Positions 11,788 to 47,873 of a DNA stretch of 53,711 bases are shown here, piece by piece. The first letter of the stretch is position 1. Each line of letters starts with the position of its first letter. The translations under genes and the position numbers were made by a program. Below the pieces are notes generated by a model. That model searched no databases. It saw nothing but the letters and a program-made list of their open reading frames with translations, and was not told where the DNA came from. This stretch comes from an uncultured Devosiaceae bacterium (lineage in GTDB: Bacteria; Pseudomonadota; Alphaproteobacteria; Rhizobiales; Devosiaceae): NCBI GenBank assembly GCA_964555575.1, contig CAZKTH010000001.1:1-53711 (forward strand). Reading direction: 5' to 3'.

Positions 11788-13155
11788 CTATTTGCGGGGC
11801 CGGGCGAACCGGGACCGTGACGAGGGCGGCAGAACGAAGCTGGCTGTCAGTCCCCTGCCGCCCGACCCGTTTTCCAGATCGAAACGCGCCCCCAGCTTGC
11901 CGGCGGCGGTCTCGACGATCGTCAGTCCGAGTCCGCTGCCGGTCTTGGATCTGTGACGGCCGCGATAGAACCGCTGGGCAACCAGGGCAAGTTCTTCCGC
12001 CGGGATGCCCGGTCCGTTGTCCGTGACCGCAACGCCATTTCCATCGGTGGTTGGCGCCCAAGCTACGGTGCCATCTTCGGGTGAATGCGCCAGCGCGTTC
12101 TCATGCAGGTTGCGCAGGGCAATGGTCAGGATCTCGCGGTTGGTGCACACCATCCGACCGGCAAGAGCCGAATCGATCTTGGTGGCGATCGCCCCCCGTG
12201 CATCGGCGTTCATTTCGGCAATCTCGGTCAGCAAGGCACCGAGATCGACGTCCTCGTCCTGTTCGGGGGCATCGGTCGCGTCGAGCTTGGCCAGGACGAG
12301 CAACTGCCGCACAAGCCGGCTGGTGCGATCGACCGAGGTCAGGATCTGCCGCAGGGCATCGTGTCGGACCGCTTTGTCGTTGCTGGCCAGGGCGATTTGC
12401 GCCTGGACTTTCAATCCGGCCAGCGGCGTGCGCAGTTCATGAGCGGCGAAGGCCGTCACATCGCGTTCGTGCCGCCGTGCCGCCTCGACCTTGTCGAACA
12501 GGCCGTTGATGGCCTGCGCCAACGGGCGGAGTTCTCCGGGCGCCCGGCCGGCGTCGAGCGGACGCATGTCCTCGGCCGAACGCGCGTGCAGGTCGGTGGC
12601 CATGTTGAGAAGCGGCCGCAGCCCCCGGCCAAGACTGCCCCAGATCAGAAAGGCCAGCGCCGGCACGACGAGGAGGATGGGGGCGATCAGACCCATGATC
12701 AGGTCACCGACCAGCTTGTCGCGCAGGCCGAGCCGGTCGCCGACCATCACGCGAAAGCCGGTCTGCTTGTTCTCGATGGCATAGATCCGCCAGGCCACGC
12801 CCCCGACCAGGTGGTCGGAAAAGCCGGACGCATCATCGGCCAGCCTTTGATCGGGGGCGCCGTCCGAACGGGCGACGAGCTGGCCGTTGAGCGACCAGAT
12901 CTGGCAGGAGAGCTGGCGCTCATAGCTGAGGGCATCCGTTTCCGCTCCGGCGGCGACCGAGGCCGCCCGCGAGGCGGTGAGATCGCCGCTGGCGATCAGA
13001 GAATTGACCATGCGGGCGGCTTCCTGCAGGCGGGTGTCGAGCACGTGTTCGAGCTCGGATTTTGTGCCGAAATAGATCCAGACCACCGCGCTCAGCCAGA
13101 TCAGACCCGTGGCGGCAACCAGGATGGCAAACAGACGGCCGCGCAGGGAATTCAC
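11788..13155 (-). CDS. Two-component sensor histidine kinase (QseC/PhoQ-like architecture)
   Basis: N-terminal TM helix, a second TM helix plus HAMP-like region, H-box AHELRTPLAGL, and G-boxes DNGPGIP and GSGLGLTIV. The start overlaps the response regulator stop. Confidence 0.9.
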   Translation of the reverse strand: MNSLRGRLFAILVAATGLIWLSAVVWIYFGTKSELEHVLDTRLQEAARMVNSLIASGDLTASRAASVAAGAETDALSYERQLSCQIWSLNGQLVARSDGAPDQRLADDASGFSDHLVGGVAWRIYAIENKQTGFRVMVGDRLGLRDKLVGDLIMGLIAPILLVVPALAFLIWGSLGRGLRPLLNMATDLHARSAEDMRPLDAGRAPGELRPLAQAINGLFDKVEAARRHERDVTAFAAHELRTPLAGLKVQAQIALASNDKAVRHDALRQILTSVDRTSRLVRQLLVLAKLDATDAPEQDEDVDLGALLTEIAEMNADARGAIATKIDSALAGRMVCTNREILTIALRNLHENALAHSPEDGTVAWAPTTDGNGVAVTDNGPGIPAEELALVAQRFYRGRHRSKTGSGLGLTIVETAAGKLGARFDLENGSGGRGLTASFVLPPSSRSRFARPRK

Positions 13156-26653: not shown

Positions 26654-28954
26654 ATGCCTGACAATCGCTACACGAGCGCTCACTGGGGCAGCTACCGGTT
26701 CCAGGGCGCCGGCAGCGACCTGCGACTGGTCCCGCTCGCCGACGATCCGGCGCCATCGGTCATCGGCGCGGGCTGGCTCGCGGCGGCGCGCGATACCAAC
26801 GCACGCATCCTCGCGCCCGTGGTCCGAAAGGGCTGGCTCGAGAACCGCGACAGGCAAAGATCGGGTGACGACGGTTTTGTGGAGGTGAGCTGGGACGAAG
26901 CGCTCGACCTGGCGGCCGGGGAACTGGATCGTGTTCGCCGCGAACGGGGAAACGCCGCCATCTTCGGCGGCTCCTATGGCTGGGCGAGCGCGGGGCGGTT
27001 CCACCATGCCCAGTCGCAGCTGCACCGGTTCCTGAACACCATCGGCGGTTACGTGTCGTCTGCCAACACCTATTCCCACGCCGCTGCCGAAGTGCTTTTC
27101 CCTTATGTGACAGGCCTGTCGAACGAAGAATTCCTGAACCGGATGACAAGCTGGTCCTCGGTTGCCGAGCATTGCCAGCTGCTGGTGAGTTTCGGTGGCC
27201 TTTCGGGCCGGACGGCCCAGATTGCTTCCGGCGGCACGTCCTCGCACGAGGTCGAAGCCTGGCTCGCACGGGCGCGCGCCAACGGCGCGGAATTCGTCAA
27301 TGTCTCGCCGCTGCGATCCGACATGGCGGATGCGCATGAAGCCACGCAACTGGCGATCCGTCCGAACACGGACACAGCGCTGATGCTGGGGCTCGCCCAT
27401 TGTCTTGTCGAGCAGAACCTTTGCGACCGCGCCTTTCTCGAGCGCTACACCAGCGGCTGGCCGCGTTTCGAACGCTACCTGACGGGCGCAGCCGATGGCA
27501 CGCCGAAATCCGCCGAATGGGCGGCATCCATCTGCGACATCGAAGCGGACCGGATTCGCGCTCTGGCGCGCCGGATGGCGACGCGCAAAACCATGATCGC
27601 CATGACCTGGGGCATCCAGCGCGCCGATCACGGCGAACAGCCCCTGTGGATGGGGATCACGCTTGCCGCCATGCTCGGGCAGATCGGCAGACCGGGAACG
27701 GGATTCGGGTTTGGCTATGGGTCCACCGCGCCGATCGGTCGACCGGCAAAGCTGATCGCGCGCCCTTCATTGCCGCAGGGCAGAAATCCGGTCGCCGATT
27801 TCATTCCGGTCGCCCGCATCGCCGACATGCTGCTGTCGCCAGGGGGCACCTACACCTTCGACGGCGAAACGCGGACCTATCCCGATATCCGCCTTGTCTA
27901 TTGGGCAGGTGGAAATCCGTTCCATCACCATCAGGATCTTTTCCGCCTGCAGAAGGCCTGGTCCAGACCGGAAACCATCATCGTCAACGACATCTGGTGG
28001 ACGGCCACCGCGCGCCGCGCCGACATCGTCTTTCCGGCCACCTCCAGCTTCGAGCGTACGGATATCATGATGAGCCGCCGCGATCCGACGCTCATTTTCA
28101 TGGAAAAGCAGCTTGAACCCCTGGGACAGGCCCGCAACGACTTCGATATTTTCCGCGGTCTGGCGCAACGTCTGGGGACGCGCGACGTCTTCACCGATGG
28201 CAGGGATGAAGACCAATGGCTCCGTCATCTGTGGGACCGGGCCGGCGAACGCTCGCGACAGCATGGCGTTGTGCTCCCCGACTTCGACGCCTTCCGGGCA
28301 ATGGGGCGCTTCGACACCCCGGACGCAAACGAGGAGCGCATCCTGTTCGATGCCTTCGTCGCCGACCCGGGCGGCAATCCGCTTCAAACCCCGAGTGGCA
28401 GGATCGAAATCTACAGCGAGACGATCGCCGGCTTCGGTCTTTGCGACTGTCCCGGTCATCCGACCTGGATCGCGCCGGCCGAATGGCTGGGGCAGAAAGG
28501 CGGCGGTGCATTCCCGCTGCATCTGATTTCCAACCAGCCGCTCACCCGTCTGCACGGGCAGCTCGACAACGGACCCGTATCAGGGGCCGCCAAGATCGCC
28601 GGACGCGAGCCGGTTCGCATTCACCCGCAGACGGCCCGGCAGGCCGGCATCGAGGAGAACGACATCGTGCTGCTGTCGAGCCCGCGCGGTCGGTGTCTGG
28701 CCGCGGCAACGCTGACCGACGGCATTCGGCCCGATACGGTGGCGCTGGCAACAGGCGCCTGGTTCGATCCGCAAATCCTTGATGGCCAGGAGACGGAGGT
28801 GCACGGCAACCCCAACGCCCTGACCCTCGACAAAGGCTGTTCGGGACTGTCGCAGGGCAATATCGCGCACACCACGATGGTCGCCATCGAAAAGTGGAAT
28901 GGCCCCCTTCCCGGGATCTCCGTGCACAGCCAGCCCAGGATCGAGCAAAGGTGA
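26654..28954 (+). CDS. Molybdopterin (bis-MGD) oxidoreductase of the DMSO-reductase family, cytoplasmic BisC/TorZ-like S-/N-oxide reductase
   Basis: 766 aa with no Tat signal. The N-terminus SAHWGSYRF...VVRKGWLE, and GGSYGWASAGRFHHAQSQLHRFLN, are typical of biotin-sulfoxide/TMAO reductase relatives. AGGAGAG RBS. Confidence 0.85.
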   Translation: MPDNRYTSAHWGSYRFQGAGSDLRLVPLADDPAPSVIGAGWLAAARDTNARILAPVVRKGWLENRDRQRSGDDGFVEVSWDEALDLAAGELDRVRRERGNAAIFGGSYGWASAGRFHHAQSQLHRFLNTIGGYVSSANTYSHAAAEVLFPYVTGLSNEEFLNRMTSWSSVAEHCQLLVSFGGLSGRTAQIASGGTSSHEVEAWLARARANGAEFVNVSPLRSDMADAHEATQLAIRPNTDTALMLGLAHCLVEQNLCDRAFLERYTSGWPRFERYLTGAADGTPKSAEWAASICDIEADRIRALARRMATRKTMIAMTWGIQRADHGEQPLWMGITLAAMLGQIGRPGTGFGFGYGSTAPIGRPAKLIARPSLPQGRNPVADFIPVARIADMLLSPGGTYTFDGETRTYPDIRLVYWAGGNPFHHHQDLFRLQKAWSRPETIIVNDIWWTATARRADIVFPATSSFERTDIMMSRRDPTLIFMEKQLEPLGQARNDFDIFRGLAQRLGTRDVFTDGRDEDQWLRHLWDRAGERSRQHGVVLPDFDAFRAMGRFDTPDANEERILFDAFVADPGGNPLQTPSGRIEIYSETIAGFGLCDCPGHPTWIAPAEWLGQKGGGAFPLHLISNQPLTRLHGQLDNGPVSGAAKIAGREPVRIHPQTARQAGIEENDIVLLSSPRGRCLAAATLTDGIRPDTVALATGAWFDPQILDGQETEVHGNPNALTLDKGCSGLSQGNIAHTTMVAIEKWNGPLPGISVHSQPRIEQR

Positions 28955-29581: not shown

Positions 29582-30520
29582 ATGCTGCTCGCGCATGTGG
29601 CCATCCTTTACTACAAGGACGGGCTGACGCAGAGCGAGATCGCCAAACGTCTCGGCGTCTCCCGCGCGACGGTGGTGAATTACCTGCGTTCGGCGCGCGA
29701 GCAGAACATCGTCGATATCCGTATATCCGGTTCGTCCTTTGTTGGGTCGCGACTGTCCAGGGACCTCAAGGAACGCTTTGGGCTCGAGGACGTCTATATC
29801 GCGATTGTGTTTCCGGGCACCGCGCTCAGCCTGGCGAAGCAGGCGGCGGAAATCCGTCGTCAGGTCGCGCGGGTCGGCGCCATGGCGCTTTGCGACCTGG
29901 TGCAGGCCGGCAACGTGCTGGGGGTTGCCTGGGGCGAGACCATCCGGCGTCTATCGGAGGAACTTCCAAGGAGCTCGGTACGCAATCTGACGGTGTGCCA
30001 GTTGATCGGCTCGATGAAGTCCCCCCTGCTTTCGGCGGCGGAAACCTGCGCGATCCGCATCGCCTCGAACCTTGGCGCCGACTGCTACACCCTGCATGCG
30101 CCGGCGGTTCTGACCAGTGCCAAGCTGGCCGAGGAGCGCAAGGTCGAGCCGATCATCCAGACACAGTTGCAGCGTTTGAACACCCTGACCAAAACGCTGT
30201 TTTCGGTGGGCAATTGCGAAACATCGACCCACATCATCCAGGCCGGAATCACCACCCAGAAGGAACTGGACTGGTATCGCTCGCAAGGCGCGGTCGGCGT
30301 CATTTGCGGACGCTTCATCGATGCCTCGGGGCGGCATATCGAGGGCAAGGTCGATGCGCGCATGATCAGCATCACGCCGGCTCAGATGAAGAAGGTCAAA
30401 ACCGGCATCCTGGTCGCATCCGGCACCGAAAAGATCGAGGTGATCAAGGCAGCGCTTGCCGGCGGCTACGCCACCCACCTCATCATCGTTGAGCCGACGG
30501 GCAAACAGCTCCTGAGCTGA
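29582..30520 (+). CDS. SorC/DeoR-type sugar-binding transcriptional regulator
   Basis: LLAHVAILYYKDGLTQSEIAKRLGVSRATVVNYLRSAREQNIVDIRI HTH and a C-terminal sugar-phosphate-binding domain. The start is ATG at 29582, or alternatively TTG at 29519. The N-terminal 138 aa of the 450-aa ORF is read-through of the repeat and kinase stub. Confidence 0.8.
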   Translation: MLLAHVAILYYKDGLTQSEIAKRLGVSRATVVNYLRSAREQNIVDIRISGSSFVGSRLSRDLKERFGLEDVYIAIVFPGTALSLAKQAAEIRRQVARVGAMALCDLVQAGNVLGVAWGETIRRLSEELPRSSVRNLTVCQLIGSMKSPLLSAAETCAIRIASNLGADCYTLHAPAVLTSAKLAEERKVEPIIQTQLQRLNTLTKTLFSVGNCETSTHIIQAGITTQKELDWYRSQGAVGVICGRFIDASGRHIEGKVDARMISITPAQMKKVKTGILVASGTEKIEVIKAALAGGYATHLIIVEPTGKQLLS

Positions 30521-30881
30521 GTCCGCGTGCCGAAGGCGATCGATTATTCCCCGTCCGCGCCCTCCTGCCTGGCATAAAGCGCATCGTCGCGCGCCCGGTC
30601 AGCTTTCGCAACCCTTCGGCGCCGAAACGCGCGCCGGCAAAGCGGCACGGGCCTCAGCATCCGCCCGGTCGTCCGCGAGGACCCTGTAGGTGACGGTGAA
30701 CCTGTCCATGTTCCTTTCTTCCTCGCCGGTGGTGCAGCGCGGTGGCGGAAAAGGACGCCTCGGCAAGTCACTACTGCCTTTTGTCACCTCGGGCGTGTGG
30801 CGGTTTGACCGGATTGCCGGCGATTGTCCGTCGAGCCCAGGACGGATAGCCTGACGATTCATTTTCAGGAGATCTGCGGGA

Positions 30882-32675
30882 ATGGAGTCCGCATCCGAAA
30901 CGCCACGTCAGAGGGTTCGCAGTCTTTTCGGCGCCGCGCGCCGTCGCGGCGAGTTTCTGGTCGGCGCCGCGATCGGGGCGGGCATTCTTGGACAGGCGGC
31001 CGAAAAGGGCGGGGCGGATTTCGTGTTGGCGCTCGGTGCCGGCCGTTTTCGCATCATGGGTGCCGCCTCGGTGGCGTGCATGCTGCCAATCCGCGACAGC
31101 AACCAGTTCGTCACCCAGTTCGCTTCGTCGGAAATGCTGAGTCAGATCTCGATCCCGGTCTATTTCGGAGCCTCGACGCTCGACCCCGGACTGTCGGTCG
31201 AGACGCTGGCCGACGAAATCGCCGATCTCGGATTTGCCGGGGTCGTGAACTTTCCGACCGTCGGGCATTATCCGGCCCGGATGCGTGCCGCCCTCGATGC
31301 CGCCGGCATCGGCTTTTCCAAGGAACTGTCGCTGTTTTCCGCCGCTCACGATCGCGGCCTCAGCACGCTCGCCTATGTGCGTACCGGCGAACAGGCGCGG
31401 GCGGCAGCGGCGTGCGGGGTCGATATCGTCTGCTTCAATTTCGGCTGGAACGCCGGAGGCGTCCAGGGACTGGTCAGCGAGATCGGCATCGAGGAAGCGG
31501 CCGTGCAGTCGCGCGAGATATCGCGGATCGTCGCCCGCGAAAATCCGGACAGCTTCTTCGTTCTCGAGGGCGGACCGATCGAGGATCCGGATCAAGTGGC
31601 GGCGATCTGCCGGGTCGCGCATATTCATGGCTATGTCGGCGGTTCGACCATTGACCGGCTGCCGCTGGCCGAATCCGTCGCCAGCCAGACCCTGCGCTTC
31701 AAGTCGGCGGCAGTTCTGGCCCGCGTGCTCTCCAACGAGGAAAGCGCCCTGATCTCTTTCGGTCATCGCATCGGGCTGGCCGGCAGATCCGAGGCCATGA
31801 TCCGGGTCTACGAGACCATCGAGCGGTTCAGCGACTCGAACGAGTCGATGCTCGTGGCCGGTGCCCCTGGCAGCGGACGCCAGACCACCGTCGAGGCACT
31901 CCACACCCTGTCGGGCGGCAACCCGCAGCAGCTCGCCGTGGTCCACGCCGCCGAGACCTCGGGCCAGCAGGTCATGATCACCCTGTTCGGGCGCAGGGCC
32001 GTGGAGGGTGGCGGTTTTCTGACGGGCCTTGCCGGACGCGACGACATCGCGACCATCGTCGTTCGGGGGATCGAGCACATTCCCACCAAGATGCAGGCCC
32101 GCATCGCCGTCTACATGGAACGGGGCCGGTTCACCCCGATCGGCGGACGACGCTCGGTGCAGTGGGGCAAGCGGCTTCTGTTCATCGCCGACGCGCCGCT
32201 CGCAACGCTGCTCGCCGAGGGCCGCATCGACCCGGGTCTGGCCCAGCAGATCGAGGGATACGAGATCGTCCTGCCCGCACTCAGCGACCGGGCCGAGGAC
32301 ATCGAGGAACTGATCAATGACGCCGTCTCCCGCCTGATCGAAAAGGAATCCGGGCAGCGGCCGGTGCTGTCGCCACTCGCCATGCGGCGGCTCAGGCGCC
32401 ACGACTGGCCGGGCAACCTGCCGGAGCTCAGGGCTTTCGCTGCCAGGCTGGTGTCGCACCATGCCGGCAGTCGCGTCGATGAAGAGGCGGTGGAAAGCCT
32501 GCTGTCCGGCGAGACCGACCGCGGTCGTCGTCGCGTCGCTTCCGAGCGCGACATGGTGCTCGATGCCCTGTGGCGCCACGGCTTCCACCGCGGCCACACC
32601 GCAGCCTTTCTCGGCATTTCGCGCAAGACGCTCTACAACAAGATCCAGCGCTACCATCTCACCCGGCAGCGTTGA
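30882..32675 (+). CDS. bEBP-like transcriptional regulator: N-terminal PEP-hydrolase-like TIM-barrel domain, degenerate sigma54-interaction AAA+ module, and Fis-type HTH
   Basis: Residues about 25-270 resemble the protein encoded at 39559 (GFAGVVNFPTVGHYPARMRAALDAAGIGF). Residues about 300-530 are colinear with the NtrC-type AAA+ module (WPGNLPELRAF) but carry altered Walker A, Walker B and GAFTGA motifs. The C-terminus is AAFLGISRKTLYNKIQRY. Confidence 0.8.
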   Translation: MESASETPRQRVRSLFGAARRRGEFLVGAAIGAGILGQAAEKGGADFVLALGAGRFRIMGAASVACMLPIRDSNQFVTQFASSEMLSQISIPVYFGASTLDPGLSVETLADEIADLGFAGVVNFPTVGHYPARMRAALDAAGIGFSKELSLFSAAHDRGLSTLAYVRTGEQARAAAACGVDIVCFNFGWNAGGVQGLVSEIGIEEAAVQSREISRIVARENPDSFFVLEGGPIEDPDQVAAICRVAHIHGYVGGSTIDRLPLAESVASQTLRFKSAAVLARVLSNEESALISFGHRIGLAGRSEAMIRVYETIERFSDSNESMLVAGAPGSGRQTTVEALHTLSGGNPQQLAVVHAAETSGQQVMITLFGRRAVEGGGFLTGLAGRDDIATIVVRGIEHIPTKMQARIAVYMERGRFTPIGGRRSVQWGKRLLFIADAPLATLLAEGRIDPGLAQQIEGYEIVLPALSDRAEDIEELINDAVSRLIEKESGQRPVLSPLAMRRLRRHDWPGNLPELRAFAARLVSHHAGSRVDEEAVESLLSGETDRGRRRVASERDMVLDALWRHGFHRGHTAAFLGISRKTLYNKIQRYHLTRQR

Positions 32676-32695
32676 GCTTCCCAAGGGTGCGGGTG

Positions 32696-33382
32696 TCAGT
32701 CGAGCAGGACGCCGTCGGCGCCGGCCTCATGCGCCTGCGCGGCGGACAGGCCCAGACGGCCGCCGAACAGGACAATCGGAATTTCCAGTCCCGCCCGTTC
32801 CTCCAGGTCCGCCACCTGGCGGCAGAAGCCCAGCAACCCTTTCGAATCGAAGCTGCCTTCGTTCCACAGATCGAAACTCGGTACGATGAAAAGATAGGAC
32901 GGCTCGAGCGCGAACGCGGGAACGACGTCGTCGACATGGGCGACGGCAACAGAAATGGCAAAACCGAGATCCGCGAACCGCTTGAGCACCTGCCGCTCGC
33001 GTATCGGCCCGACATTGAGGTCATTGAGGATCGATCGGAAGCTGGAGCCGTACTGGGCGGCGTTCGGCAGGTTCACAAGGTTCCGGTAACCCTTGTCCGC
33101 CAGACGCTCGGCAAGCTGGTCGACCCGCAGAAACGGATCGGCGGCAAGGATGCCGATGATCGGATGCTCGCCGGGCGGGCAGTAGGGCATGGCCTCGAGC
33201 TCCAGCAACAGATCGTTGTTGTGATCCCGATTCGGCATCAGGCCCGACAGTTCGATCGGCAGGTCCGGGACGCGCCGGATGGGCGGCAGGACGATGTCGC
33301 CGCTGCGCGCAACGCTCGGCGTGACGTGACCCGCCCCCATCACGATACGATTCCAGGCTGAAGGATTCTGCAAATTCACCAC
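32696..33382 (-). CDS. Short, divergent PEP-hydrolase-like TIM-barrel paralog (228 aa)
   Basis: IVMGAGHV..., PIIGILAADPFLRVDQLAERLADKGYRNLVNLPNAAQYGSSFRSILNDLNVGPIRERQV aligns by eye with the 39559 product and the regulator N-domain. Third-position GC is high. GTG start at 33382, with an alternative ATG 14 codons in. Confidence 0.6.
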   Translation of the reverse strand: MVNLQNPSAWNRIVMGAGHVTPSVARSGDIVLPPIRRVPDLPIELSGLMPNRDHNNDLLLELEAMPYCPPGEHPIIGILAADPFLRVDQLAERLADKGYRNLVNLPNAAQYGSSFRSILNDLNVGPIRERQVLKRFADLGFAISVAVAHVDDVVPAFALEPSYLFIVPSFDLWNEGSFDSKGLLGFCRQVADLEERAGLEIPIVLFGGRLGLSAAQAHEAGADGVLLD

Positions 33383-33591
33383 GGCAATTACCCGATTTTA
33401 CCCAACTGTCATTCCAATCCCGCTTGGCGGTCCTGTCAAGCAGGCATACAGTCTCCGGCGTAGACAGGGAGGCAGGAGAAGCGGAACGACGGCCCGGAAA
33501 CAAAGAATCCGGCCCGTTTCCAGCAACTCTTTCCAACAGACAACAACGAACCGCACGTGAAAGGCGCCCGCTTCGTCGGGGCGGCGACTGC

Positions 33592-34455
33592 ATGGATTCG
33601 CGCTACGTCATACTTGTGCTCAATGGCCTTACGCAGGGGGCGTTGTTCTTCGTCCTCGGCAGCGGACTGACATTGGCCTTCGGGCTCATGCGCATCGTCA
33701 ATATGAGCCATGGCGCCTTCTATCTCCTCGGGGGCTATCTGGGCCTTGCGACCCTGAGGGTCACGGGGAGTTGGGTTCTGGCGCTGGCGGCCGCCGGCCT
33801 TTCCATCGCCGTGCTCGGCTTTGCGATCGAACGCGGCATGCTGGCACGGGTCCGCGAAGGCGGGGATCTGTCCCAGACCCTTTTGACGATTGCGATCTCG
33901 ATGATCATTGCCGACCTCGCCCTTGCCATGTGGGGCGGACATCCGCTGTCGATCACGTCGCCCGCGGCCATCAGCAGGCCGGTCACGCTGTTCGGACTGA
34001 CCTATCCCGGCTTCCGCTATGTGCTGATGGCCATCAGCGTCGTGATCGCCTTTGTGCTGTGGTTCATCCTGTTCCGAACCAAATTCGGCATCGCCGTGCG
34101 CGCCAGTGTCGATGATCGCGAGACGGTCAGCGCGCTTGGCGTGCGCATCGACGTGATCTATTCGCTGATGTTCATGCTGTCGGCCTTTCTCGGCGGCGTC
34201 GCGGGCGTGCTCGGCGGCACCTATCTCCAACTCAGTCCGGGCGAGGACACGACCATCCTCACCTATTCGCTGGTTGTGGTCATCGTCGGCGGCCTTGGCA
34301 GCCTGACCGGCGCCATCGTCAGTTCGCTGATCCTCGGGCAGATCCTGTCCTTCAGCCTGGCTTTCGCGCCGCAATTGTCGATGTTCCTGGTCTTCGTGCC
34401 CATGGCCCTGGTGCTCGCGCTCCGCCCCGAAGGTCTTTTCGGGAGGCGGCTGTGA
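33592..34455 (+). CDS. Branched-chain-amino-acid-type (HAAT family) ABC permease, LivH-like
   Basis: MDSRYVILVLNGLTQGALFFVLGSGLTLAFGLMRIVNMSHGAFYLLGGY is the classic LivH N-terminus. Confidence 0.9.
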   Translation: MDSRYVILVLNGLTQGALFFVLGSGLTLAFGLMRIVNMSHGAFYLLGGYLGLATLRVTGSWVLALAAAGLSIAVLGFAIERGMLARVREGGDLSQTLLTIAISMIIADLALAMWGGHPLSITSPAAISRPVTLFGLTYPGFRYVLMAISVVIAFVLWFILFRTKFGIAVRASVDDRETVSALGVRIDVIYSLMFMLSAFLGGVAGVLGGTYLQLSPGEDTTILTYSLVVVIVGGLGSLTGAIVSSLILGQILSFSLAFAPQLSMFLVFVPMALVLALRPEGLFGRRL

Positions 34456-35498
34456 TGGCCAACCTGCTCGAGAGCCTCGGCAAGACCCGGCTGGCGGTCT
34501 CGGCCGTCATCATTCTGGCGCTGGTGGCGCTTCCCGCCTATGGCGACCAGTACACGCTGACGACCTTCATCCGCATCGGCTATTTTGGCTTCCTCGCCCT
34601 GAGCGTCGGCCTGCTGCTGGGCCAGGGCGGCATGATCAGCCTCACCCAGACCGCCTTTTTCGGCATGAGCGGCTACGCCATCGGACTGCTCGGCACCGAA
34701 CGGGGCATACCGTTCCCCATTCCCGAACTGACGGGCCTGGTTCTGGTCGCCGCGGCCGCCTTCCTGTTCGGCCTGGTGGTCATGCGCACGCACGGGATCG
34801 TCTTTCTCATGCTGACGCTGGCGCTCGGACAGATCTGCTGGTCCTTCGCGCGCCAGAACACCAGCCTTCTGCACGGCTGGGCCGGCATCAGGGACATCCA
34901 TCCGCCGCAACTGTTCGGAATCGATCTGACCCAGAACGCCAATTTCTACTGGATGACGCTGATCCTGTTCGGCCTGGCACTTTTGTTCCTGTGGCGATTG
35001 ATCGAATCGCCCTTCGGCCTGGCGCTGAACGGGATCCGCGAAAGCCCCCGCCGCATGAGCGCCCTCGGCTACCCGGTATTCTGGCTGCGCGTGACGATCT
35101 TCGTCATCGCCGCCGTGCTGGCCGGCGTCGGCGGCATACTGGCGGCCTGGTCATCCGGGATCGTTACCCCGACCGCACTTCAGCTGAGCCGGACGATCTG
35201 GATCCTGCTGATCGTCATCCTGGGCGGCGCCCAGTATTTCTGGGGCCCGGTTCTGGGAGCGGTCATCGCGGTCTGGCTCGATGTCATCATCAGCCAGATG
35301 ACCCCCCGCTACAACACCGTGGTCGGCCTGATCTTCGTCATCGTCATCATGCTTGCCCCGACCGGCATTCTCGGGGTGTGGCACAAAATCAAGGCCAGAC
35401 GACAGGCCCGCCGCGAAGCGCTGGCCACATCCGCACAACCCAACCACAGGAAGGCGCCATCGGCCGAGCCGCATGGGACAGCCAAGGAGGAGGAGTGA
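34452..35498 (+). CDS. HAAT-family ABC permease, LivM-like
   Basis: Multi-TM protein with GQGGMISLTQTAFFGMSGY. The start overlaps the livH-like stop. It has a basic C-terminal tail. Confidence 0.85.
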   Translation: MMANLLESLGKTRLAVSAVIILALVALPAYGDQYTLTTFIRIGYFGFLALSVGLLLGQGGMISLTQTAFFGMSGYAIGLLGTERGIPFPIPELTGLVLVAAAAFLFGLVVMRTHGIVFLMLTLALGQICWSFARQNTSLLHGWAGIRDIHPPQLFGIDLTQNANFYWMTLILFGLALLFLWRLIESPFGLALNGIRESPRRMSALGYPVFWLRVTIFVIAAVLAGVGGILAAWSSGIVTPTALQLSRTIWILLIVILGGAQYFWGPVLGAVIAVWLDVIISQMTPRYNTVVGLIFVIVIMLAPTGILGVWHKIKARRQARREALATSAQPNHRKAPSAEPHGTAKEEE

Positions 35499-35503
35499 AG
35501 ACC

Positions 35504-36817
35504 ATGAACTACAACAAACTCAGAAGAACGCTTGCGGCCATCGCCGCGGCAGGCGTGATCGCGGCACCGGCAGCCGTTCTGGCTGCCGAAGACAGCATCA
35601 CCATCGGCATGCTGAGTGCTTTCACCGGGGCGTTCGCCTCGTTCGGACAGCTGCAGAAGGAAGGCGCGGTGCTGGCGCTCGAGCAGTGGGACTACACCGC
35701 TGGCGGCAAGACCATCAAGATGATCTATGCCGACGACCAGCTCGACAACGAACTGGCCGTCACCAAGGCCAAGCAGCTCGTCGAGCAGGACAAGGTCGAC
35801 GTCGTCACCGGTCTGGTGTCCGGCGACGAGGGTCTGTCGGTCGGCGCCTATATGAAGGGCAAGGACATTCCGGTCGTGCCCATGTACTCGGCCTCCGAGG
35901 ACATGACCATGCGCGAATGGTATTCCTTCATCGTTCGCCCGACCTGGACCGGCGCCCAGCCCATGGACGTTTTCGGCTACTGGCTTGCCAAGGAAAAGGG
36001 TCTCAAGAAGATCTACATGATCGGCGAGGACTACTCCTATCCCTACAATCAGGCCGGCGGCTTCAAGCGCGGTTTCCTCAGGGGCGGCGGCGAGGAAGTG
36101 ACCACCATCTGGCACCCGGTGCCGACCTCGGACTATTCCTCGATCATCGCCTCGATCCCGCTCGATCAGGGCTATGACGCCGTGCTCTACAACGGCGCCG
36201 GCTCGGACGCGGTGGCCTTCGTCAAGCAGTATGTCGAATTCGGCATGCAGAACCAGATTCCGCTGCTCGGCCAGTCCAACACCTTCGAAAAGCCGGATCT
36301 CGATTCCATGCCGACGGCCATTGTCGGTTCGTACTCGGCACACCTGACCGCCGACGACATGAACACGCCCAACTGGAACAAGTTCCGTGATGCTTTCGTG
36401 GAACGCTGGGGCCACAGCCCGTCGGCCGCTTCCGAGTTCGCCTATGGCTCGATGGAACTGATCCTCAGGGCGATTGACGCGCTTTCCGGCAATGTCGCGG
36501 ACAAGGCTGCCCTGATCGAGGCCATGAGAAACGTCAATCTCACCGACGAGCCGCGCGGACCCGTGACGCTCGACGAATACAATGCGGCGGTCGAGAACGT
36601 CTATATCCGCGAAGTCGCCCTCGCCGACGACGGCACCATGTACAACAAGGGTCTGTTCACCGCCGAGGCCGTGAGCCAGTTCGGGCCCTATGACTCCGTG
36701 GTCTACATGGCCGAGCCGGCCGACGGCCGCGACGAGCCGACCGGACTGCGCAGCAAGATGCCCGAAGAAATGCTGAACGTTGCGAAGGACTACCAGTTCG
36801 TGCCCTTCGGGCAGTAG
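35504..36817 (+). CDS. Periplasmic substrate-binding protein, Leu/Ile/Val-binding (Peripla_BP_6-like) type
   Basis: Signal peptide MNYNKLRRTLAAIAAAGVIAAPAAVLA, then ITIGMLSAFTGAFASFGQ...GAVLALEQ..., the typical LivK-type pattern. AAGGAGGAGGAG RBS. Confidence 0.85.
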   Translation: MNYNKLRRTLAAIAAAGVIAAPAAVLAAEDSITIGMLSAFTGAFASFGQLQKEGAVLALEQWDYTAGGKTIKMIYADDQLDNELAVTKAKQLVEQDKVDVVTGLVSGDEGLSVGAYMKGKDIPVVPMYSASEDMTMREWYSFIVRPTWTGAQPMDVFGYWLAKEKGLKKIYMIGEDYSYPYNQAGGFKRGFLRGGGEEVTTIWHPVPTSDYSSIIASIPLDQGYDAVLYNGAGSDAVAFVKQYVEFGMQNQIPLLGQSNTFEKPDLDSMPTAIVGSYSAHLTADDMNTPNWNKFRDAFVERWGHSPSAASEFAYGSMELILRAIDALSGNVADKAALIEAMRNVNLTDEPRGPVTLDEYNAAVENVYIREVALADDGTMYNKGLFTAEAVSQFGPYDSVVYMAEPADGRDEPTGLRSKMPEEMLNVAKDYQFVPFGQ

Positions 36818-36844
36818 GTGCTTTCCCGGTAGCATGGTGCATCA

Positions 36845-37609
36845 ATGACCAACCCCGATCAGAAGCTCGCCATCGTCACCCGGCAGGTGTCCAAGACCTT
36901 CGGCGGCGTCAAGGCGGTCCAGGGCGTGGATCTTTCCATTGCCGTGGGCGAACGGCGTGCCCTGATCGGGCCGAACGGTGCCGGCAAGTCGACGCTGTTC
37001 AATCTGATCACCGGAGAAATTCCGGTCGACAACGGACAAATCGAAGTTCTCGGCCGGGACGCGACCCGCCTCAGCGTACAGCGTCGCGCCCGGCTGGGGC
37101 TGGGACGCACCTACCAGATTTCCCAGCTTTTTCTCAATCTGACGGTAGAACAGGGCCTGTTCCTCGCCTGCGGGGCAGGAACCGGCATCGCCTTTTCCAT
37201 GTTCAGCCGATGGCGCGATCGCGGCGAGGATCTCGAATGGATCCGCGACGTGGCCGAACAGGTCGGCCTGACCGAGCATCTTCATCGAACCGTCGGCGAA
37301 CTGGCGCATGGGCTTCAACGCCAGCTCGAACTCGGCATGGCGCTCGCCATGCGCCCCAGGCTCGTCATGCTCGACGAGCCGGCAGCGGGACTTTCCCCGG
37401 CCGAACGCCAGACGCTTGTGGGGCTCATCCTCAAGATGGCGCCCGACATCACACTCATCCTGATCGAGCATGACATGGACATCGTCATGGAACTGGCACA
37501 GCGCATCACCGTGTTGCATCGGGGCGCCGTGATCACGGAGGGCACGCCCGAGGAAATCCGCCAGGACGAGACGGTGCAGCGCATCTACCTGGGAGAGGTC
37601 CATGCCTGA
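36845..37609 (+). CDS. HAAT-family ABC ATPase, LivG-like
   Basis: Walker A GPNGAGKST, Walker B LVMLDEPAAGL, and a LivG-type C-terminus (YLGE). Confidence 0.9.
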   Translation: MTNPDQKLAIVTRQVSKTFGGVKAVQGVDLSIAVGERRALIGPNGAGKSTLFNLITGEIPVDNGQIEVLGRDATRLSVQRRARLGLGRTYQISQLFLNLTVEQGLFLACGAGTGIAFSMFSRWRDRGEDLEWIRDVAEQVGLTEHLHRTVGELAHGLQRQLELGMALAMRPRLVMLDEPAAGLSPAERQTLVGLILKMAPDITLILIEHDMDIVMELAQRITVLHRGAVITEGTPEEIRQDETVQRIYLGEVHA

Positions 37610-38324
37610 CACCGCCGCCACCGCGCCGGTTCTCGTTCTCGAGGATCTGCATGCCTCCTATGGCGAAAGCCACGTCTTGCAGGGCTGTTCGCTTACCGTC
37701 GGCCACGAATGCGTCACGGTTCTGGGACGCAACGGCATGGGCAAGACGACGCTGCTGCGCGCCATTCTCGGTCTGACCCCGCCGAGTTCGGGACGCGTGC
37801 TGCTGAACGGCGAGGAGATGACCCATCTCAAGCCGTTCCAGATCGCCGAACACGGCATCGGCTACGTGCCGCAGGGACGGCGCCTTTTTCAGTCGCTGAC
37901 GGTGCAGGAACACCTCACCCTGACCTACGCTGCCAGACGCGGGACGGACGAATGGACGCCCAAGCGGGTGTTCGACCTGTTCCCCGAACTGTGGGACCGG
38001 CGGAACATCAGCGGCACGCGCCTTTCCGGCGGCGAACAGCAGATGCTGGCGATCGGCCGGGCGCTGGTCACCAATCCCAGGATCCTGATGCTGGACGAAC
38101 CGTCCGAAGGATTGTCGCCGGTTGCCAATGAGCGGGTCATCGAAACCTGCCGGACGTTGCAGCGCGAAGGACTCTCGGTGTTGCTCGTCGAACAGAATAT
38201 CCACGTCGCCGAAGCGCTGGCGGACCGCATCTACGTCATCCTGAGCGGCAGGACCGTTTACGAATCCCCTGCCCCGGAATTCCTCTCGAACCGGGAGCTC
38301 CGGCAGAAATATCTCGGTGTTTGA
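37602..38324 (+). CDS. HAAT-family ABC ATPase, LivF-like
   Basis: GRNGMGKTT, LSGGEQQMLAIGRAL, ILMLDEPSEGL, and the C-terminal YLGV. Confidence 0.9.
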   Translation: MPDTAATAPVLVLEDLHASYGESHVLQGCSLTVGHECVTVLGRNGMGKTTLLRAILGLTPPSSGRVLLNGEEMTHLKPFQIAEHGIGYVPQGRRLFQSLTVQEHLTLTYAARRGTDEWTPKRVFDLFPELWDRRNISGTRLSGGEQQMLAIGRALVTNPRILMLDEPSEGLSPVANERVIETCRTLQREGLSVLLVEQNIHVAEALADRIYVILSGRTVYESPAPEFLSNRELRQKYLGV

Positions 38325-38336
38325 AGGAGAAAATCC

Positions 38337-39554
38337 ATGAAAACCGTCGCAATTGTGGGAACGCTTGATACCAAGGGCGCCGAGTTCGGCTTCCTCAAGG
38401 CCGAGATCGAACGGCATGGCTGCGCCACCCTGGTGCTCGATGCGGGCGTTTCGGGCAAGCCGGCCTTTGCCCCGGATGTCACCGCCGAGGAAATCTGTGC
38501 CGAGGGCGAAAACACCATCTCGTCGCTGCAGGCGCTCGAGCGTGGCGCCGCTCTCGACATCATGGCCAGGATGCTGCCGGTCGCCGTGAAGCGCTTGTTC
38601 GAGCAGGGGCGGTTCGACGGCATCATTTCGATGGGCGGCGGCGGCGGTACGGCCCTCGGCACAAGTGCCATGCGGCCACTGCCCATCGGCGTGCCCAAAA
38701 TCATGGTGTCGACCCTCGCTGCGGCCGATACCAGTCCCTATGTCGGTTCGAGCGACATCATCATGATGCCCTCGATCGTCGACGTCTCGGGGCTCAACCG
38801 TATTTCGCAAACGATCTTCGCCAATGCCGCCGCGGCGATCTGCGGCATGGTTGCGAACAGGGACGAAGCGCCGGCGGCTGCCGATGAGCGTCCGCTCGTT
38901 GCCGCCTCGATGTTCGGCAATACCACGCGTGCCGTCGATCATGCGCGCAAGCTCATCGAGCAAGCGGGCTACGAGGTCCTGGTCTTTCACGCCACCGGCG
39001 CCGGCGGGCGGACAATGGAACGCCTGATCGGCGAAGGCTATTTCGCCGGCGTTCTCGACATCACCACAACCGAATGGGCCGACGAATTGTGCGGCGGCGC
39101 CCTCAGCGCCGGACCGGCGCGTCTCGATGCGGCGGCGGCGGCAGGCGTTCCGCAGGTGGTGACGCCAGCCTGCATCGACATGTGCAATTTCTGGGCGCCG
39201 GAGACCATTCCGTCCCGCTATGGCGACCGCAAGTTCCATCACTGGAGCCCGAACGTCACGCTGATGCGGACCACACCGGAGGAGAACGCCGCCATCGGGC
39301 GCGTTTTCGCCGAAAAGCTGTCGACCGCCGCGGGACCGGTTGCCGTACTCGTGCCGATGAAGGGGTTCTCCGAAATCGATGCGCCGGACAAGCAGTTCTG
39401 GTGGCCCGAAGCCGACCAGGCATTCGTCGATGCACTGCGCGCCGGGCTCCGTCCGGACATCCCGGTGATGCTGCTCGACTACAACGTCAACGACGCGGAA
39501 TTCGCCGAACAGGCGGCAAACACGCTGCTGCAAATGCTGAACAAAAGGAAGTGA
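38337..39554 (+). CDS. UPF0261-family protein (Tm-1 N-terminal-domain-like, putative nucleotide-binding)
   Basis: [21 protein letters not shown]..., MGGGGGT, MFGNTT and [12 protein letters not shown] are the characteristic UPF0261 pattern as I recall it. GAAGGAGA RBS. 12 nt after the livF-like stop. Confidence 0.8.
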
Positions 39555-39558
39555 CAAA

Positions 39559-40392
39559 ATGGCCATCGCACGAGCGGACATCCTGCGGAAACTGAACGAG
39601 CAGGCAAAGGCGGGCATCCCAATCGTCGGGGGTGGCGCCGGCACCGGCATTTCGGCCAAATGCGAAGAAGCCGGCGGCGTCGACCTCCTGGTGATCTACA
39701 ATACCGGCCGCTACCGCATGGCGGGACGCGTCTCGATCACCGGTCTTTTCGCCTATGGCGACGCCAACCAGATTGTCGTCGAGATGGCGGGCGAGGTCCT
39801 GCCCGTGGTCAAGAAGACCCCCGTCCTGGCCGGGGTGAACGCGACCGACCCGTTCCGGTCGATGCCGGTCTTTCTGAAGCAGATCAAGGAACTCGGATTC
39901 TCGGGCGTGCAGAACTTCCCGACCGTCGGCCTGTTCGACGGCAGGATGCGGGCGAACATGGAAGCGACCGGACTCGGCTATGCCAAGGAGGTCGAGATGA
40001 TCCGCCTCGCCCACGAGATGGATCTGCTCACCACGCCCTATGTCTTCAATGCGGAAGAGGCAAAGGCCATGGCCGAAGCCGGCGCCGATATCATCGTCGC
40101 CCATGTCGGCCTGACGACCGGCGGCTCGATCGGCGCCGCCGACGCCTTCTCCCTGGACGACGCGATCGATACCACGCTCAAGATCGCCGCGGCCGCCCGT
40201 TCGGTTCGTCCGGACCTCCTGATCATCTGCCACGGCGGGCCCTTCGACGAGCCGGAGAACGTGGCCGAGGCGATGAAACGCATGCCGGGCATCAATGGCT
40301 TTTTCGGCGCTTCCAGCATGGAACGGCTTCCTGTCGAGCGGGCCATCACCGCTCAGGTGGCGAAATTCAAGGAAATGCGGCTGACGCGATAG
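39559..40392 (+). CDS. PEP-hydrolase-like TIM-barrel protein (Tm-1 C-terminal-domain-like)
   Basis: [27 protein letters not shown]..., [16 protein letters not shown] and [17 protein letters not shown], the family pattern as I recall it. 4 nt after the UPF0261 stop. Confidence 0.75.
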
Positions 40393-47748: not shown

Positions 47749-47873
47749 TGGCACTTTTTTTTCTTGCGCCGCACCGGGTTGACTGACATATGACATCTGA
47801 GATATCAGTTGTCAATCGCATCGATCGGAGGCCGGCGTTGGCGCATGGCGGAACGCGGGCCGGGAGGGGACAG

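What the first reader, a model, noticed from the sequence alone, without database searches (positions are those of the whole stretch)
31779..32675. Enhancer-binding-protein scaffold whose ATPase and sigma54-contact motifs are all degenerate
Seen in the sequence: regulator residues about 300-530 are colinear with the NtrC-type sigma54-interaction module (LAGRSEAMIRVYETIERFSDSNESMLVAG..., ...LPALSDRAEDIEELI..., ...WPGNLPELRAF...), followed by a Fis-type HTH (AAFLGISRKTLYNKIQRY). Every functional signature I know for this module is altered. Walker A GESGTGKE becomes GAPGSGRQ (Lys to Arg). The GAFTGA loop becomes GGFLTG. Walker B LFLDEIGE becomes IVVRGIEH (Asp-Glu lost). The FRxDLYYRL arginine segment becomes IDPGLAQQI. 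Inference: this is a pseudo-ATPase that probably no longer remodels sigma54 holoenzyme. It may act as a conventional activator or repressor gated by its enzyme-like TIM-barrel sensor. That would be an unusual evolutionary state for a bEBP.
Basis: partly seen in the sequence, partly recalled or inferred. Interest (0 to 1): 0.65.

Follow-up and report, generated by a model that had tools for sequence, protein, structure and literature searches.

The report
Dead-ATPase enhancer-binding regulator rewired to sigma70
This regulator keeps the fold of a sigma54-activating motor protein but has lost every catalytic and sigma54-contact residue, and comparison with intact relatives suggests that its target promoter changed from the sigma54 type to an ordinary sigma70 type while the DNA site and sensor domain stayed the same.

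Summary
ORF 30882-32675 (+, 597 aa) has four parts: a PEP_hydrolase-like TIM barrel, a weak Sigma54_activat AAA+ core (52.8 bits, against 229-239 in intact relatives), an AAA lid and a Fis-type HTH.

All tested signatures are gone. Walker A Lys is Arg333. Walker B DE is Arg395-Gly396. The GAFTGA loop is absent and shortened. Both arginine fingers are lost (Asp450, Gln456), and so is the sensor II Arg (Pro514).

It is not a pseudogene. The AAA+ core has dN/dS of 0.13-0.22, and the AlphaFold model keeps the AAA+ fold.

About 200 relatives share this architecture and the same target operon (Liv-type ABC transporter, UPF0261, PEP_hydrolase). About 10% are intact, and all 9 intact loci with context carry a TGGCAC-N5-TTGC promoter. 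The degenerate majority do not (3/68 unconserved weak matches, Fisher p about 7e-8). They instead carry a conserved TTG-17/18-TAnnnT promoter exactly 20 nt downstream of the same TTACCC-N4-TTACCC site.

Best reading: an "atypical EBP" acting as a sigma70-dependent, ligand-gated activator from about -64. This is a new variant of a known kind, and the family is a natural sigma54-to-sigma70 rewiring series. No experiments were done.

The parts
30882..32675 (+). Regulator CDS, 597 aa: TIM-barrel sensor, dead AAA+ core, lid and Fis-type HTH
   Evidence: ORF; Pfam domains; 120 homologs with the same architecture
30936..31706 (+). PEP_hydrolase-like (PF09370) TIM-barrel sensor domain, residues 19-275. 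It is a paralog (34% identity) of the last enzyme of the target operon.
   Evidence: Pfam E 4e-71; BLASTP against window 39559-40392, E 3e-48; Foldseek TMt 0.86 to 2p10
31668..31769 (+). Long linker helix (residues 263-296) joining the sensor to the AAA+ core
   Evidence: AF2 model secondary structure, pLDDT 80-95
31779..32264 (+). Degenerate Sigma54_activat AAA+ core, residues 300-461
   Evidence: PF00158 scores 52.8 bits, against 229-239 bits in intact family members; dN/dS 0.13-0.22; TMt 0.82-0.85 to NtrC1 and PspF AAA+ domains
31860..31883 (+). Walker A remnant GAPGSGRQ (residues 327-334). Arg333 replaces the catalytic Lys and Gln334 replaces Glu.
   Evidence: Alignments
31992..32027 (+). 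Shortened L1 loop (residues 371-382, RRAVEGGGFLTG). There is no GAFTGA sigma54-contact motif.
32052..32075 (+). Walker B remnant TIVVRGIE (residues 391-398). Arg395-Gly396 replace Asp-Glu.
32223..32255 (+). Arginine-finger segment RIDPGLAQQIE (residues 448-458). Asp450 and Gln456 replace R162 and R168 of PspF.
32406..32429 (+). Sensor II segment WPGNLPEL (residues 509-516). Pro514 replaces R227 of PspF.
32544..32654 (+). Fis-type HTH (HTH_8), residues 555-591. It is nearly invariant across the family (FLGISRKTLYNK).
   Evidence: Pfam; invariant columns; dN/dS 0.02-0.05
32696..33382 (-). Short, divergent PEP_hydrolase-like ORF (228 aa; the true start may be the internal ATG near 33340). It is a conserved convergent neighbour of the regulator and is transcribed divergently from the target operon.
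   Evidence: Weak PF09370 hit; conserved position in intact and degenerate loci
33388..33403 (+). Predicted operator TTACCCGATTTTACCC (TTACCC-N4-TTACCC direct repeat). It is the only copy in the window.
   Evidence: Unique exact match; invariant block in alignment A2; found upstream of the target operon in 67 loci
33424..33429 (+). Predicted -35 hexamer TTGGCG, 20 nt downstream of the operator
   Evidence: TTG is invariant in 7/7 close loci and present at this exact offset in 70-78% of 60 non-redundant degenerate loci
33447..33452 (+). Predicted -10 hexamer TACAGT after a 17-nt spacer. The predicted start of transcription is about 33459.
   Evidence: TA...T is invariant in 7/7 close loci. At 8/12 consensus matches it falls below the simple scanner's threshold, as expected for an activator-dependent promoter.
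33592..40392 (+). Predicted target operon: livH, livM, solute-binding protein, livG, livF, UPF0261, PEP_hydrolase
   Evidence: Pfam; the same gene set is linked to the regulator in nearly all 85 loci

Best explanation
The protein is an 'atypical' enhancer-binding protein: a pseudo-ATPase derived from a sigma54 activator.

Shown from sequence:
- It keeps the ligand-sensing TIM barrel, which is a paralog of the operon's own PEP_hydrolase-like enzyme.
- It keeps the AAA+ fold and the Fis-type HTH.
- It lacks every residue needed for ATP hydrolysis and for contacting sigma54.

Inferred:
- It binds the single TTACCC-N4-TTACCC operator at 33388-33403.
- When its TIM barrel binds the pathway's small molecule, it activates a weak sigma70-type promoter (TTGGCG-17-TACAGT) from about -64. 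This would be by recruiting or contacting RNA polymerase in a class I-like way, not by ATP-driven remodelling.
- That turns on the Liv-type ABC transporter, UPF0261 and PEP_hydrolase operon.
- The dead AAA+ domain is kept as an oligomerisation or allosteric relay module between sensor and DNA-binding domain.

Evolutionary reading: the ancestral family member was a true sigma54 activator. It had two dyad-arranged operator copies 45-55 nt and further upstream of a -24/-12 promoter. In at least two lineages the promoter was replaced by a sigma70 promoter placed 20 nt from one operator copy, the distal copy was lost, and the ATPase decayed.
For: Motif loss is shown.

PF00158 bit scores form a gradient: 229-239 for intact members, then 122, 90, 52.8 (window), 37 and 20. 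PEP_hydrolase and HTH_8 scores stay constant across the same proteins.

Purifying selection acts on the dead core: dN/dS is 0.13-0.22, against 0.09-0.14 for the TIM barrel. The AAA+ fold is retained (pLDDT 90.6; TMt 0.82-0.85 to NtrC1 and PspF).

The same cassette occurs in intact and degenerate loci. All 9 intact loci with context have TGGCAC-N5-TTGC 75-160 nt upstream of the first target gene. Only 3/68 degenerate loci have even a match with 2 or fewer mismatches, and none is conserved (Fisher p 7e-8). The window has no -24/-12 match in either intergenic region.

The alignment of 7 close loci conserves only three things: the operator, TTG, and TAnnnT after a 17-nt spacer. Across 60 degenerate loci TTG sits at a fixed +36 to +38 from the operator start. 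None of the 6 intact loci listed has TTG at that offset.

The inverted distal operator copy is present only in intact loci (p 1.6e-5).

Precedent: VpsR lacks GAFTGA and the Walker B DE, has no ATPase activity, and activates a sigma70 promoter (PMC6158489).
Against: - There is no transcription start, binding, ATPase or rpoN-dependence data. The promoter assignment rests on phylogenetic footprinting.
- The -35/-10 pair matches consensus at only 8/12 positions.
- In some distant degenerate subclades the -10 is not obvious, and the -35-position hexamer reads (C/G)TGGCA, which resembles a -24 element.
- The operator is a direct repeat, which is unusual for Fis-type HTH dimers.
- The conserved glycine-rich P-loop with Arg (GxGSGR) leaves open residual nucleotide binding.
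- The same site abuts the divergent short gene, so repression is possible there.
- The tree used to infer two or more independent losses is neighbour-joining without support values.
- Whether the window's organism has rpoN could not be checked.
Confidence: 0.7

Rival explanations
1. The same pseudo-ATPase regulator acts mainly as a repressor, or as a dual regulator. Binding at 33388-33403 would block the divergent short PEP_hydrolase-like gene or hold the liv-UPF0261 operon off until ligand releases it, as NtrX does at its own promoter.
For: The operator lies only 6-48 nt from the start of the divergent short ORF. NtrX, the best sequence and structure match, is reported as a repressor.
Against: The operator ends 20 nt upstream of the -35 and does not overlap the -35, the -10 or the start site. 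The fixed helical-phase spacing in 60 loci and the weak promoter hexamers are typical of activator-dependent promoters.
Confidence: 0.2
2. The AAA+ domain is not fully dead. It still binds a nucleotide or another phosphorylated ligand without hydrolysing it, and this acts as a second allosteric input. E. coli TyrR, R. capsulatus NtrC and c-di-GMP-binding FleQ and VpsR are comparable. This reading is compatible with the sigma70-activator model.
For: The glycine pattern G-x-x-G-[ST]-G-R is conserved through the window's subclade. From general knowledge, Lys-to-Arg in P-loops often keeps binding while losing hydrolysis. The core is under purifying selection.
Against: The Walker B Asp that holds Mg2+ is replaced by Arg, and sensor II and both arginine fingers are gone. 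Deeper members of the same clade have lost the P-loop glycines altogether (for example EPGQSTG and EQGIDPV) yet keep the same operator and promoter layout.
Confidence: 0.25
3. It is still a sigma54-dependent activator. It would work either through an unrecognised contact surface or as a hetero-oligomer with an intact EBP that supplies ATPase and GAFTGA in trans.
For: PF00158 homology is above the Pfam threshold. One database names a degenerate homolog 'sigma-54-dependent'.
Against: No -24/-12 promoter exists at the target in the window or in 65/68 degenerate loci, while all intact loci have one. An operator 20 nt from the promoter leaves no room for enhancer looping. All seven functional signatures are missing.
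Confidence: 0.03
4. The central region is a decaying remnant, either a pseudogene or a neutral spacer with no function.
For: The extreme loss of conserved motifs.
Against: The ORF is intact. The core has dN/dS of 0.13-0.22, similar to the sensor domain. The state is conserved from 36 to 84% identity across many genera. The AAA+ fold is predicted with confidence.
Confidence: 0.02

Closest known systems
Vibrio cholerae VpsR (atypical EBP; PDB 7v2b)
   Same: It has the EBP architecture without GAFTGA and a non-catalytic Walker B. It shows no ATPase activity and activates a sigma70 promoter from a site just upstream of the -35 without ATP (PMC6158489). It is also a structural hit.
   Different: VpsR has a receiver-domain sensor and needs c-di-GMP. 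It keeps more of the AAA+ signature (Walker B is ND, Walker A is present). The window protein has a PF09370 TIM-barrel sensor and has lost the Walker A Lys, both arginine fingers and sensor II as well.
Brucella abortus NtrX (PDB 5m7n)
   Same: It is the best sequence and fold match for the AAA+-HTH part. It is an alphaproteobacterial EBP lacking GAFTGA and acts independently of sigma54.
   Different: NtrX is a two-component response regulator. It still has GPSGAGKE and the Walker B DE (alignment) and was crystallised with ATP and with ADP (entry titles). It is reported as a repressor.
TyrR / PhhR, HupR, HsfA, and GAFTGA-less NtrC of Rhodobacter capsulatus and Caulobacter
   Same: These are EBP-derived regulators working at sigma70 promoters. 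The first four are listed as atypical EBPs in PMC6158489. The abstract of the Caulobacter NtrC paper, listed, introduces that protein with 'Notably'. That both NtrC proteins lack GAFTGA is from my own knowledge.
   Different: They have different sensor domains, and most retain nucleotide binding. To my knowledge, none has been shown alongside intact sigma54-dependent orthologs that regulate the same operon through the same operator.
Intact PEP_hydrolase-EBP regulators of the same family (P0082/L001, P0069/L003, L072, L050 and others)
   Same: They share the sensor, the lid, the HTH, the TTACCC-N4-TTACCC operator, the target operon and the convergent short partner gene.
   Different: They keep GTGKE, GAFTGA, LDE, FRxDLYYRL and WPGNxREL. 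They have two dyad-arranged operator copies and a perfect -24/-12 promoter.
PF09370 'TIM-barrel signal transduction' / PEP_hydrolase-like domain (Mll9387, PDB 2p10; C-terminal half of plant Tm-1)
   Same: The N-terminal domain is a clear member of this family (TMt 0.86). The older Pfam name for this domain is 'TIM-barrel signal transduction' (TBST) (PMC5028733). That the name refers to this fusion with sigma54-activator domains is my recollection, not something I read here.
   Different: No biochemical function is established for the domain. Its usual partner UPF0261 was only recently shown to be an ATP-dependent phenolic kinase (MarK, PMC12624787).

Membership tests
Canonical bacterial enhancer-binding protein (sigma54-dependent AAA+ activator) | Central AAA+ domain homologous to PF00158 | tested here: met
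   PF00158 E 4.8e-14 at 52.8 bits, which is weak (intact relatives score 229-239 bits). The fold has TMt 0.82-0.85 to NtrC1 and PspF.
Canonical bacterial enhancer-binding protein (sigma54-dependent AAA+ activator) | Walker A GxxxxGK[ST] | tested here: not met
   The sequence is GAPGSGRQ, with Lys replaced by Arg333. No GK[ST] P-loop exists anywhere in the protein.
Canonical bacterial enhancer-binding protein (sigma54-dependent AAA+ activator) | Walker B hhhhDE | tested here: not met
   The sequence is TIVVRG, with DE replaced by Arg395-Gly396.
Canonical bacterial enhancer-binding protein (sigma54-dependent AAA+ activator) | GAFTGA sigma54-contact loop (L1) | tested here: not met
   The aligned residues are VEGGGF and the loop is 2-3 residues shorter. 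No GAFTGA-like string exists.
Canonical bacterial enhancer-binding protein (sigma54-dependent AAA+ activator) | Arginine fingers (PspF R162, R168) and sensor II Arg (R227) | tested here: not met
   The equivalent residues are Asp450, Gln456 and Pro514.
Canonical bacterial enhancer-binding protein (sigma54-dependent AAA+ activator) | Target promoter of the -24/-12 (TGGCAC-N5-TTGC) type, with upstream enhancer sites | tested here: not met
   There is no match in 33383-33591 or 30521-30881 at 2 or fewer mismatches. Intact relatives have one in 9/9 loci.
Canonical bacterial enhancer-binding protein (sigma54-dependent AAA+ activator) | ATP hydrolysis and rpoN-dependent activation | not testable with these tools
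   This needs an ATPase assay and an rpoN mutant with a reporter.
Atypical EBPs (TyrR, PhhR, HupR, HsfA, NtrX, VpsR) | EBP domain order (sensor, AAA+, HTH) with GAFTGA missing or altered | tested here: met
   The class is defined in PMC6158489.
Atypical EBPs (TyrR, PhhR, HupR, HsfA, NtrX, VpsR) | Acts at sigma70-type promoters | tested here: inconclusive
   A conserved TTG-17/18-TAnnnT lies at a fixed 20-nt offset from the operator. No transcription start or in vitro transcription data exist.
Atypical EBPs (TyrR, PhhR, HupR, HsfA, NtrX, VpsR) | Regulation independent of sigma54 in vivo | not testable with these tools
   This requires genetics.
PF09370 PEP_hydrolase-like / TIM-barrel signal-transduction domain | Full-length HMM match and (beta/alpha)8 fold like Mll9387 (2p10) | tested here: met
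   E 3.7e-71 covering 9-266 of 267 profile positions. TMt 0.86 and 30% identity to 2p10.
Pseudoenzyme (pseudo-ATPase) | Catalytic residues lost while the fold is kept under purifying selection | tested here: met

The most novel reading that the evidence does not exclude
The PF09370-EBP family would be a natural rewiring series. A sigma54-dependent, ATP-driven activator was converted into a sigma70-dependent pseudo-ATPase activator, at least twice independently. In each case the sensor, the DNA-recognition helix, the operator half-site and the target operon were kept. What changed was promoter type, operator number and operator distance (two dyad copies at about -70 to -130 became one copy at about -64). 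Intermediates in ATPase decay survive in extant genomes, with 4, 3, 2, 1 or 0 of the 7 scored signatures left. This would allow direct reconstruction of how an enhancer-dependent circuit becomes a recruitment-type circuit.
Probability: 0.55. Interest if true: 0.72.

Novelty: new variant of a known kind. Interest (0 to 1): 0.6.

Why it matters
Sigma54 activation by ATP-driven remodelling and sigma70 activation by recruitment are usually treated as separate regulatory logics. Only a handful of 'atypical EBPs' hint at a bridge between them.

Here one family controls one conserved operon through one conserved operator, and it exists in both states with graded intermediates. That makes the order of events (promoter swap, loss of GAFTGA, loss of Walker B, loss of arginine fingers, loss of the P-loop) inferable and testable by swapping orthologs and promoters.

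It also flags an annotation problem. Close homologs are named only 'phosphoenolpyruvate hydrolase family protein', while at least one degenerate homolog is named 'sigma-54-dependent'. Regulon predictions that count EBPs would therefore be wrong for this family.

Finally, it provides a regulator and operator handle on the still-uncharacterised bacterial UPF0261 / PEP_hydrolase (Tm-1-like) pathway.

Tried and rejected
- **Intact motifs elsewhere in the protein.** I looked for them and found none.
- **Sigma54 promoter in the window.** TGGCAC-N5-TTGCW gave 14 matches at 2 or fewer mismatches against 22 expected by chance. The 1-mismatch hit at 34975 lies inside livM.
- **L004 match.** AGGCACCCGCATTGC sits 30 nt before the livH ATG. 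I rejected it as a promoter because it is not conserved in the window and leaves no room for a leader.
- **Simple sigma70 consensus scan.** It returned nothing in 30400-33700. The promoter call rests on conservation instead.
- **Metagenome scan for close relatives.** It returned only one irrelevant locus. I used exact-protein look-ups instead.
- **Rfam search of 30400-33700.** It found no RNA family, so the roughly 130-nt leader is not a known riboswitch.
- **Literature searches** for PF09370, TIM-barrel signal transduction, UPF0261 and atypical EBP. They found no description of this regulator family. VfmH and PexR turned out to keep intact or near-intact motifs (VfmH has GAFTDA in place of GAFTGA), so neither is a precedent.
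- **Pseudogene idea.** Rejected on dN/dS.
Full report
**1. What is there**

The finding lies in ORF 30882-32675 (+), 597 aa. Pfam gives four domains:
- PEP_hydrolase (PF09370), residues 19-275, E 4e-71.
- Sigma54_activat (PF00158), residues 300-461, only 52.8 bits.
- AAA_lid_14, residues 469-548.
- HTH_8, residues 555-591.

The best NCBIfam and PDB sequence matches are NtrX, which is itself an atypical EBP. FleQ, NtrC1, ZraR and PspF follow.

**2. The observation**

I used HMMER alignments to solved EBPs and MAFFT alignments anchored on PspF. They place the window residues as follows:

| Signature | Canonical | Window |
|---|---|---|
| Walker A | GxxGxGKE | GAPGSGRQ (K42 to R333, E43 to Q334) |
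| Asn64 | N | H355 |
| L1 loop | GAFTGA | shortened, VEGGGF at the aligned positions |
| Walker B | hhhhDE | TIVVRG (R395, G396) |
| R162 / R168 | R / R | D450 / Q456 |
| Sensor II R227 | R | P514 |

No G....GK[ST], hhhhDE or GAFTGA-like string occurs anywhere else in the protein.

**3. Not a wreck**

Against three relatives at 81-84% identity, the AAA+ core has dN/dS of 0.13-0.22. The TIM barrel has 0.09-0.14 and the HTH 0.02-0.05.

An AlphaFold2 model built on 62 homologs has mean pLDDT 90.6. It shows the normal five-strand AAA+ core and a long helix (263-296) linking sensor and core. Foldseek gives TMt 0.82-0.85 at 2.6-2.9 A to the NtrC1 and PspF AAA+ domains, and TMt 0.86 to the TIM barrel of Mll9387 (2p10).

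**4. The family**

A protein search returned 120 homologs, nearly all with this architecture (one is C-terminally truncated). A scan of species-representative genomes returned 80 loci. Most are Alphaproteobacteria. There are also Gammaproteobacteria, a Castellaniella MAG, MAGs labelled 'delta proteobacterium' and Desulfobacteraceae, and single MAGs labelled Verrucomicrobiota, Vicinamibacterales and Flavobacteriaceae. Close homologs occur in Shumkonia mesophila and in Rhodospirillales MAGs.

I scored seven signatures in each regulator: K42, D107, E108, R162, R168, R227 and GAFTGA.
- Intact on all seven: 2 of 119 database proteins and 8 of 80 genome loci.
- The rest range from 4/7 down to 0/7.

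PF00158 bit scores fall in step: 229-239, then 122, 90, 52.8 (window), 37 and 20. PEP_hydrolase and HTH_8 scores stay flat.

**5. Conserved context**

In the window and in intact and degenerate relatives alike, the gene order is the same:
- the regulator;
- a convergent short PEP_hydrolase-like gene;
- an intergenic region;
- livH, livM, a solute-binding protein, livG, livF, UPF0261 and PEP_hydrolase.

The sensor domain is 34% identical to the operon's own PEP_hydrolase enzyme. That is the usual signature of a sensor derived from a pathway enzyme. UPF0261 was recently shown to be an ATP-dependent phenolic kinase (MarK; PMC12624787). The TIM-barrel partner has no known activity.

**6. The decisive comparison**

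*Intact loci.* They carry textbook -24/-12 promoters upstream of the first target gene. Examples are L001 TGGCACGGCTCTTGC, L003 TGGCACGCGGATTGC, L072 TGGCACAGCTCTTGC and L050 TGGCACGGCATTTGC, with 1-2-mismatch versions in L009, L011, L018, L069 and L077.

Under a uniform rule, the script scored 8/9 intact loci positive. The ninth, L003, was mis-targeted by the script and does have a perfect site at 12584.

*Degenerate loci.* Only 3/68 scored positive under the same rule, and none of those matches is conserved (Fisher p about 7e-8). The window has no such site.

**7. What replaced it**

I aligned the upstream regions of seven loci whose regulators are 56-100% identical to the window's. Exactly three blocks are conserved:
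- ATTACCCAATTTTACCCAA
- TTG
- TAnnnT, 17 nt further on

In the window these are 33388-33403, TTGGCG at 33424-33429 and TACAGT at 33447-33452.

The TTACCC-N4-TTACCC site occurs once in the window. It lies upstream of the target operon, in operon orientation, in 67 loci of both kinds.

I then anchored 60 non-redundant degenerate loci on the site without gaps. TTG occupies +36 to +38 in 70-78% of them, and a T marks the end of a -10 at +65. None of the 6 intact loci listed has TTG at that offset.

In intact loci the -24 element lies 44-55 nt downstream of the site, and a second, inverted tandem copy lies 14-37 nt upstream of it. Degenerate loci lack that copy (Mann-Whitney p 1.6e-5).

**8. Phylogeny (approximate)**

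I built a neighbour-joining tree of the TIM domain, rooted on the stand-alone enzymes.
- An intact Verrucomicrobiota sequence is basal.
- The window falls in an all-degenerate clade.
- The remaining intact regulators form a clade that is sister to a second degenerate clade.

The two degenerate clades also differ in which residues they lost. The window's clade mostly lost R227, which is P in the window, while the other clade mostly keeps it and has D107 changed to E. Together this suggests at least two independent decays. The tree has no support values.

**9. Mechanism**

*Shown:* loss of all catalytic and sigma54-contact residues; a retained fold under selection; a retained sensor, HTH and operator; no -24/-12 promoter; and a conserved sigma70-like hexamer pair at fixed spacing.

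*Inferred:* the protein binds the tandem TTACCC repeat centred about -64. When the TIM barrel is liganded, it activates a weak sigma70 promoter by contacting RNA polymerase. The dead AAA+ domain serves as an oligomerisation or relay module.

*Alternatives:* a repressor or dual role at the divergent short gene, and residual non-hydrolytic nucleotide binding, remain open. Continued sigma54 dependence and pseudogenisation are very unlikely.

**10. Relation to known systems**

Atypical EBPs are an established class: TyrR, PhhR, HupR, HsfA, NtrX and VpsR (PMC6158489). VpsR is the closest functional precedent. It has no GAFTGA, its Walker B reads ND, it shows no ATPase activity, and it activates through sigma70.

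The window protein fails six sequence or promoter tests for a canonical bEBP. It fits the atypical class, with a different sensor and more complete decay. I found no paper describing this family or its two-state promoter architecture.

**Verdict:** It is a new variant of a known kind. Its value is as a natural sigma54-to-sigma70 rewiring series. Interest 0.6.

Noticed in passing
window 32696-33382 (-): A short (about 214-228 aa), very divergent PEP_hydrolase-like ORF. It is conserved as the convergent neighbour of the regulator in both intact and degenerate loci, and is absent where the operon is directly divergent from the regulator (L005, L089). Residues 193-223 resemble the N-terminal strand and helix (12-42) of the stand-alone enzyme (E 0.01), which could be a circular permutation or chance. 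It might be a partner or co-sensor of the regulator.
   Followed up: partly
window 33388-33403 and 67 related loci: The operator is a direct repeat, TTACCC-N4-TTACCC, with a 10-bp period. Some loci have three repeats. This is unusual for Fis-type HTH domains, which normally bind inverted repeats. Intact loci add a second tandem in inverted orientation.
   Followed up: partly
L019, L026, L048, L051, L054, L078 and others, 20 nt downstream of the operator: In one degenerate clade the hexamer at the -35 position reads (C/G)TGGCA, which resembles a sigma54 -24 element, but there is no matching -12 TTGC. It could be a relic of a relocated -24 box or simply a -35 variant.
   Followed up: no
window 33592-40392: The target operon couples a branched-chain-amino-acid-type ABC importer to a split Tm-1-like pair (UPF0261 plus PEP_hydrolase). 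UPF0261 was recently shown to be an ATP-dependent phenolic kinase (MarK). The substrate of this widespread cassette is unknown.
   Followed up: partly
window 33497-33525: An inverted repeat, GGAAAC-N14-GTTTCC, lies in the roughly 130-nt leader between the predicted -10 and livH. It is not conserved in relatives and has no Rfam match.
   Followed up: partly
Database names of homologs (P0031, P0085, P0090, P0122): Annotation is inconsistent. Close homologs are named only 'phosphoenolpyruvate hydrolase family protein', which hides the regulator. The degenerate Azospirillum halopraeferens homolog (2 of 7 signatures) is named 'sigma-54-dependent Fis family transcriptional regulator'.
   Followed up: yes
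window 34975-34990 and 47749-47764: There are one-mismatch matches to TGGCAC-N5-TTGCW (TGGCACTTTTGTTCCT and TGGCACTTTTTTTTCT). The first is inside livM. The total number of matches in the window is below chance expectation.
   Followed up: partly
window 29588-30520 (+) and 26654-28954 (+): A SorC-type regulator (HTH plus sugar-binding domain) lies immediately upstream of the regulator gene, and a molybdopterin oxidoreductase lies before that. These neighbours are not conserved in related loci.
   Followed up: no
L084, L068 and L076, about 300 nt inside the UPF0261 gene: TGGCAC-N5-nnGC-like matches recur at the same position inside the UPF0261 coding sequence in three related loci. This is probably conserved coding sequence rather than a promoter.
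   Followed up: no
L003 3177-8777 (-): The intact-regulator locus L003 carries a second, divergently placed Liv-type transporter plus PEP_hydrolase cluster with an AraC-type regulator. This suggests paralogous copies of the pathway under different regulators.
   Followed up: no
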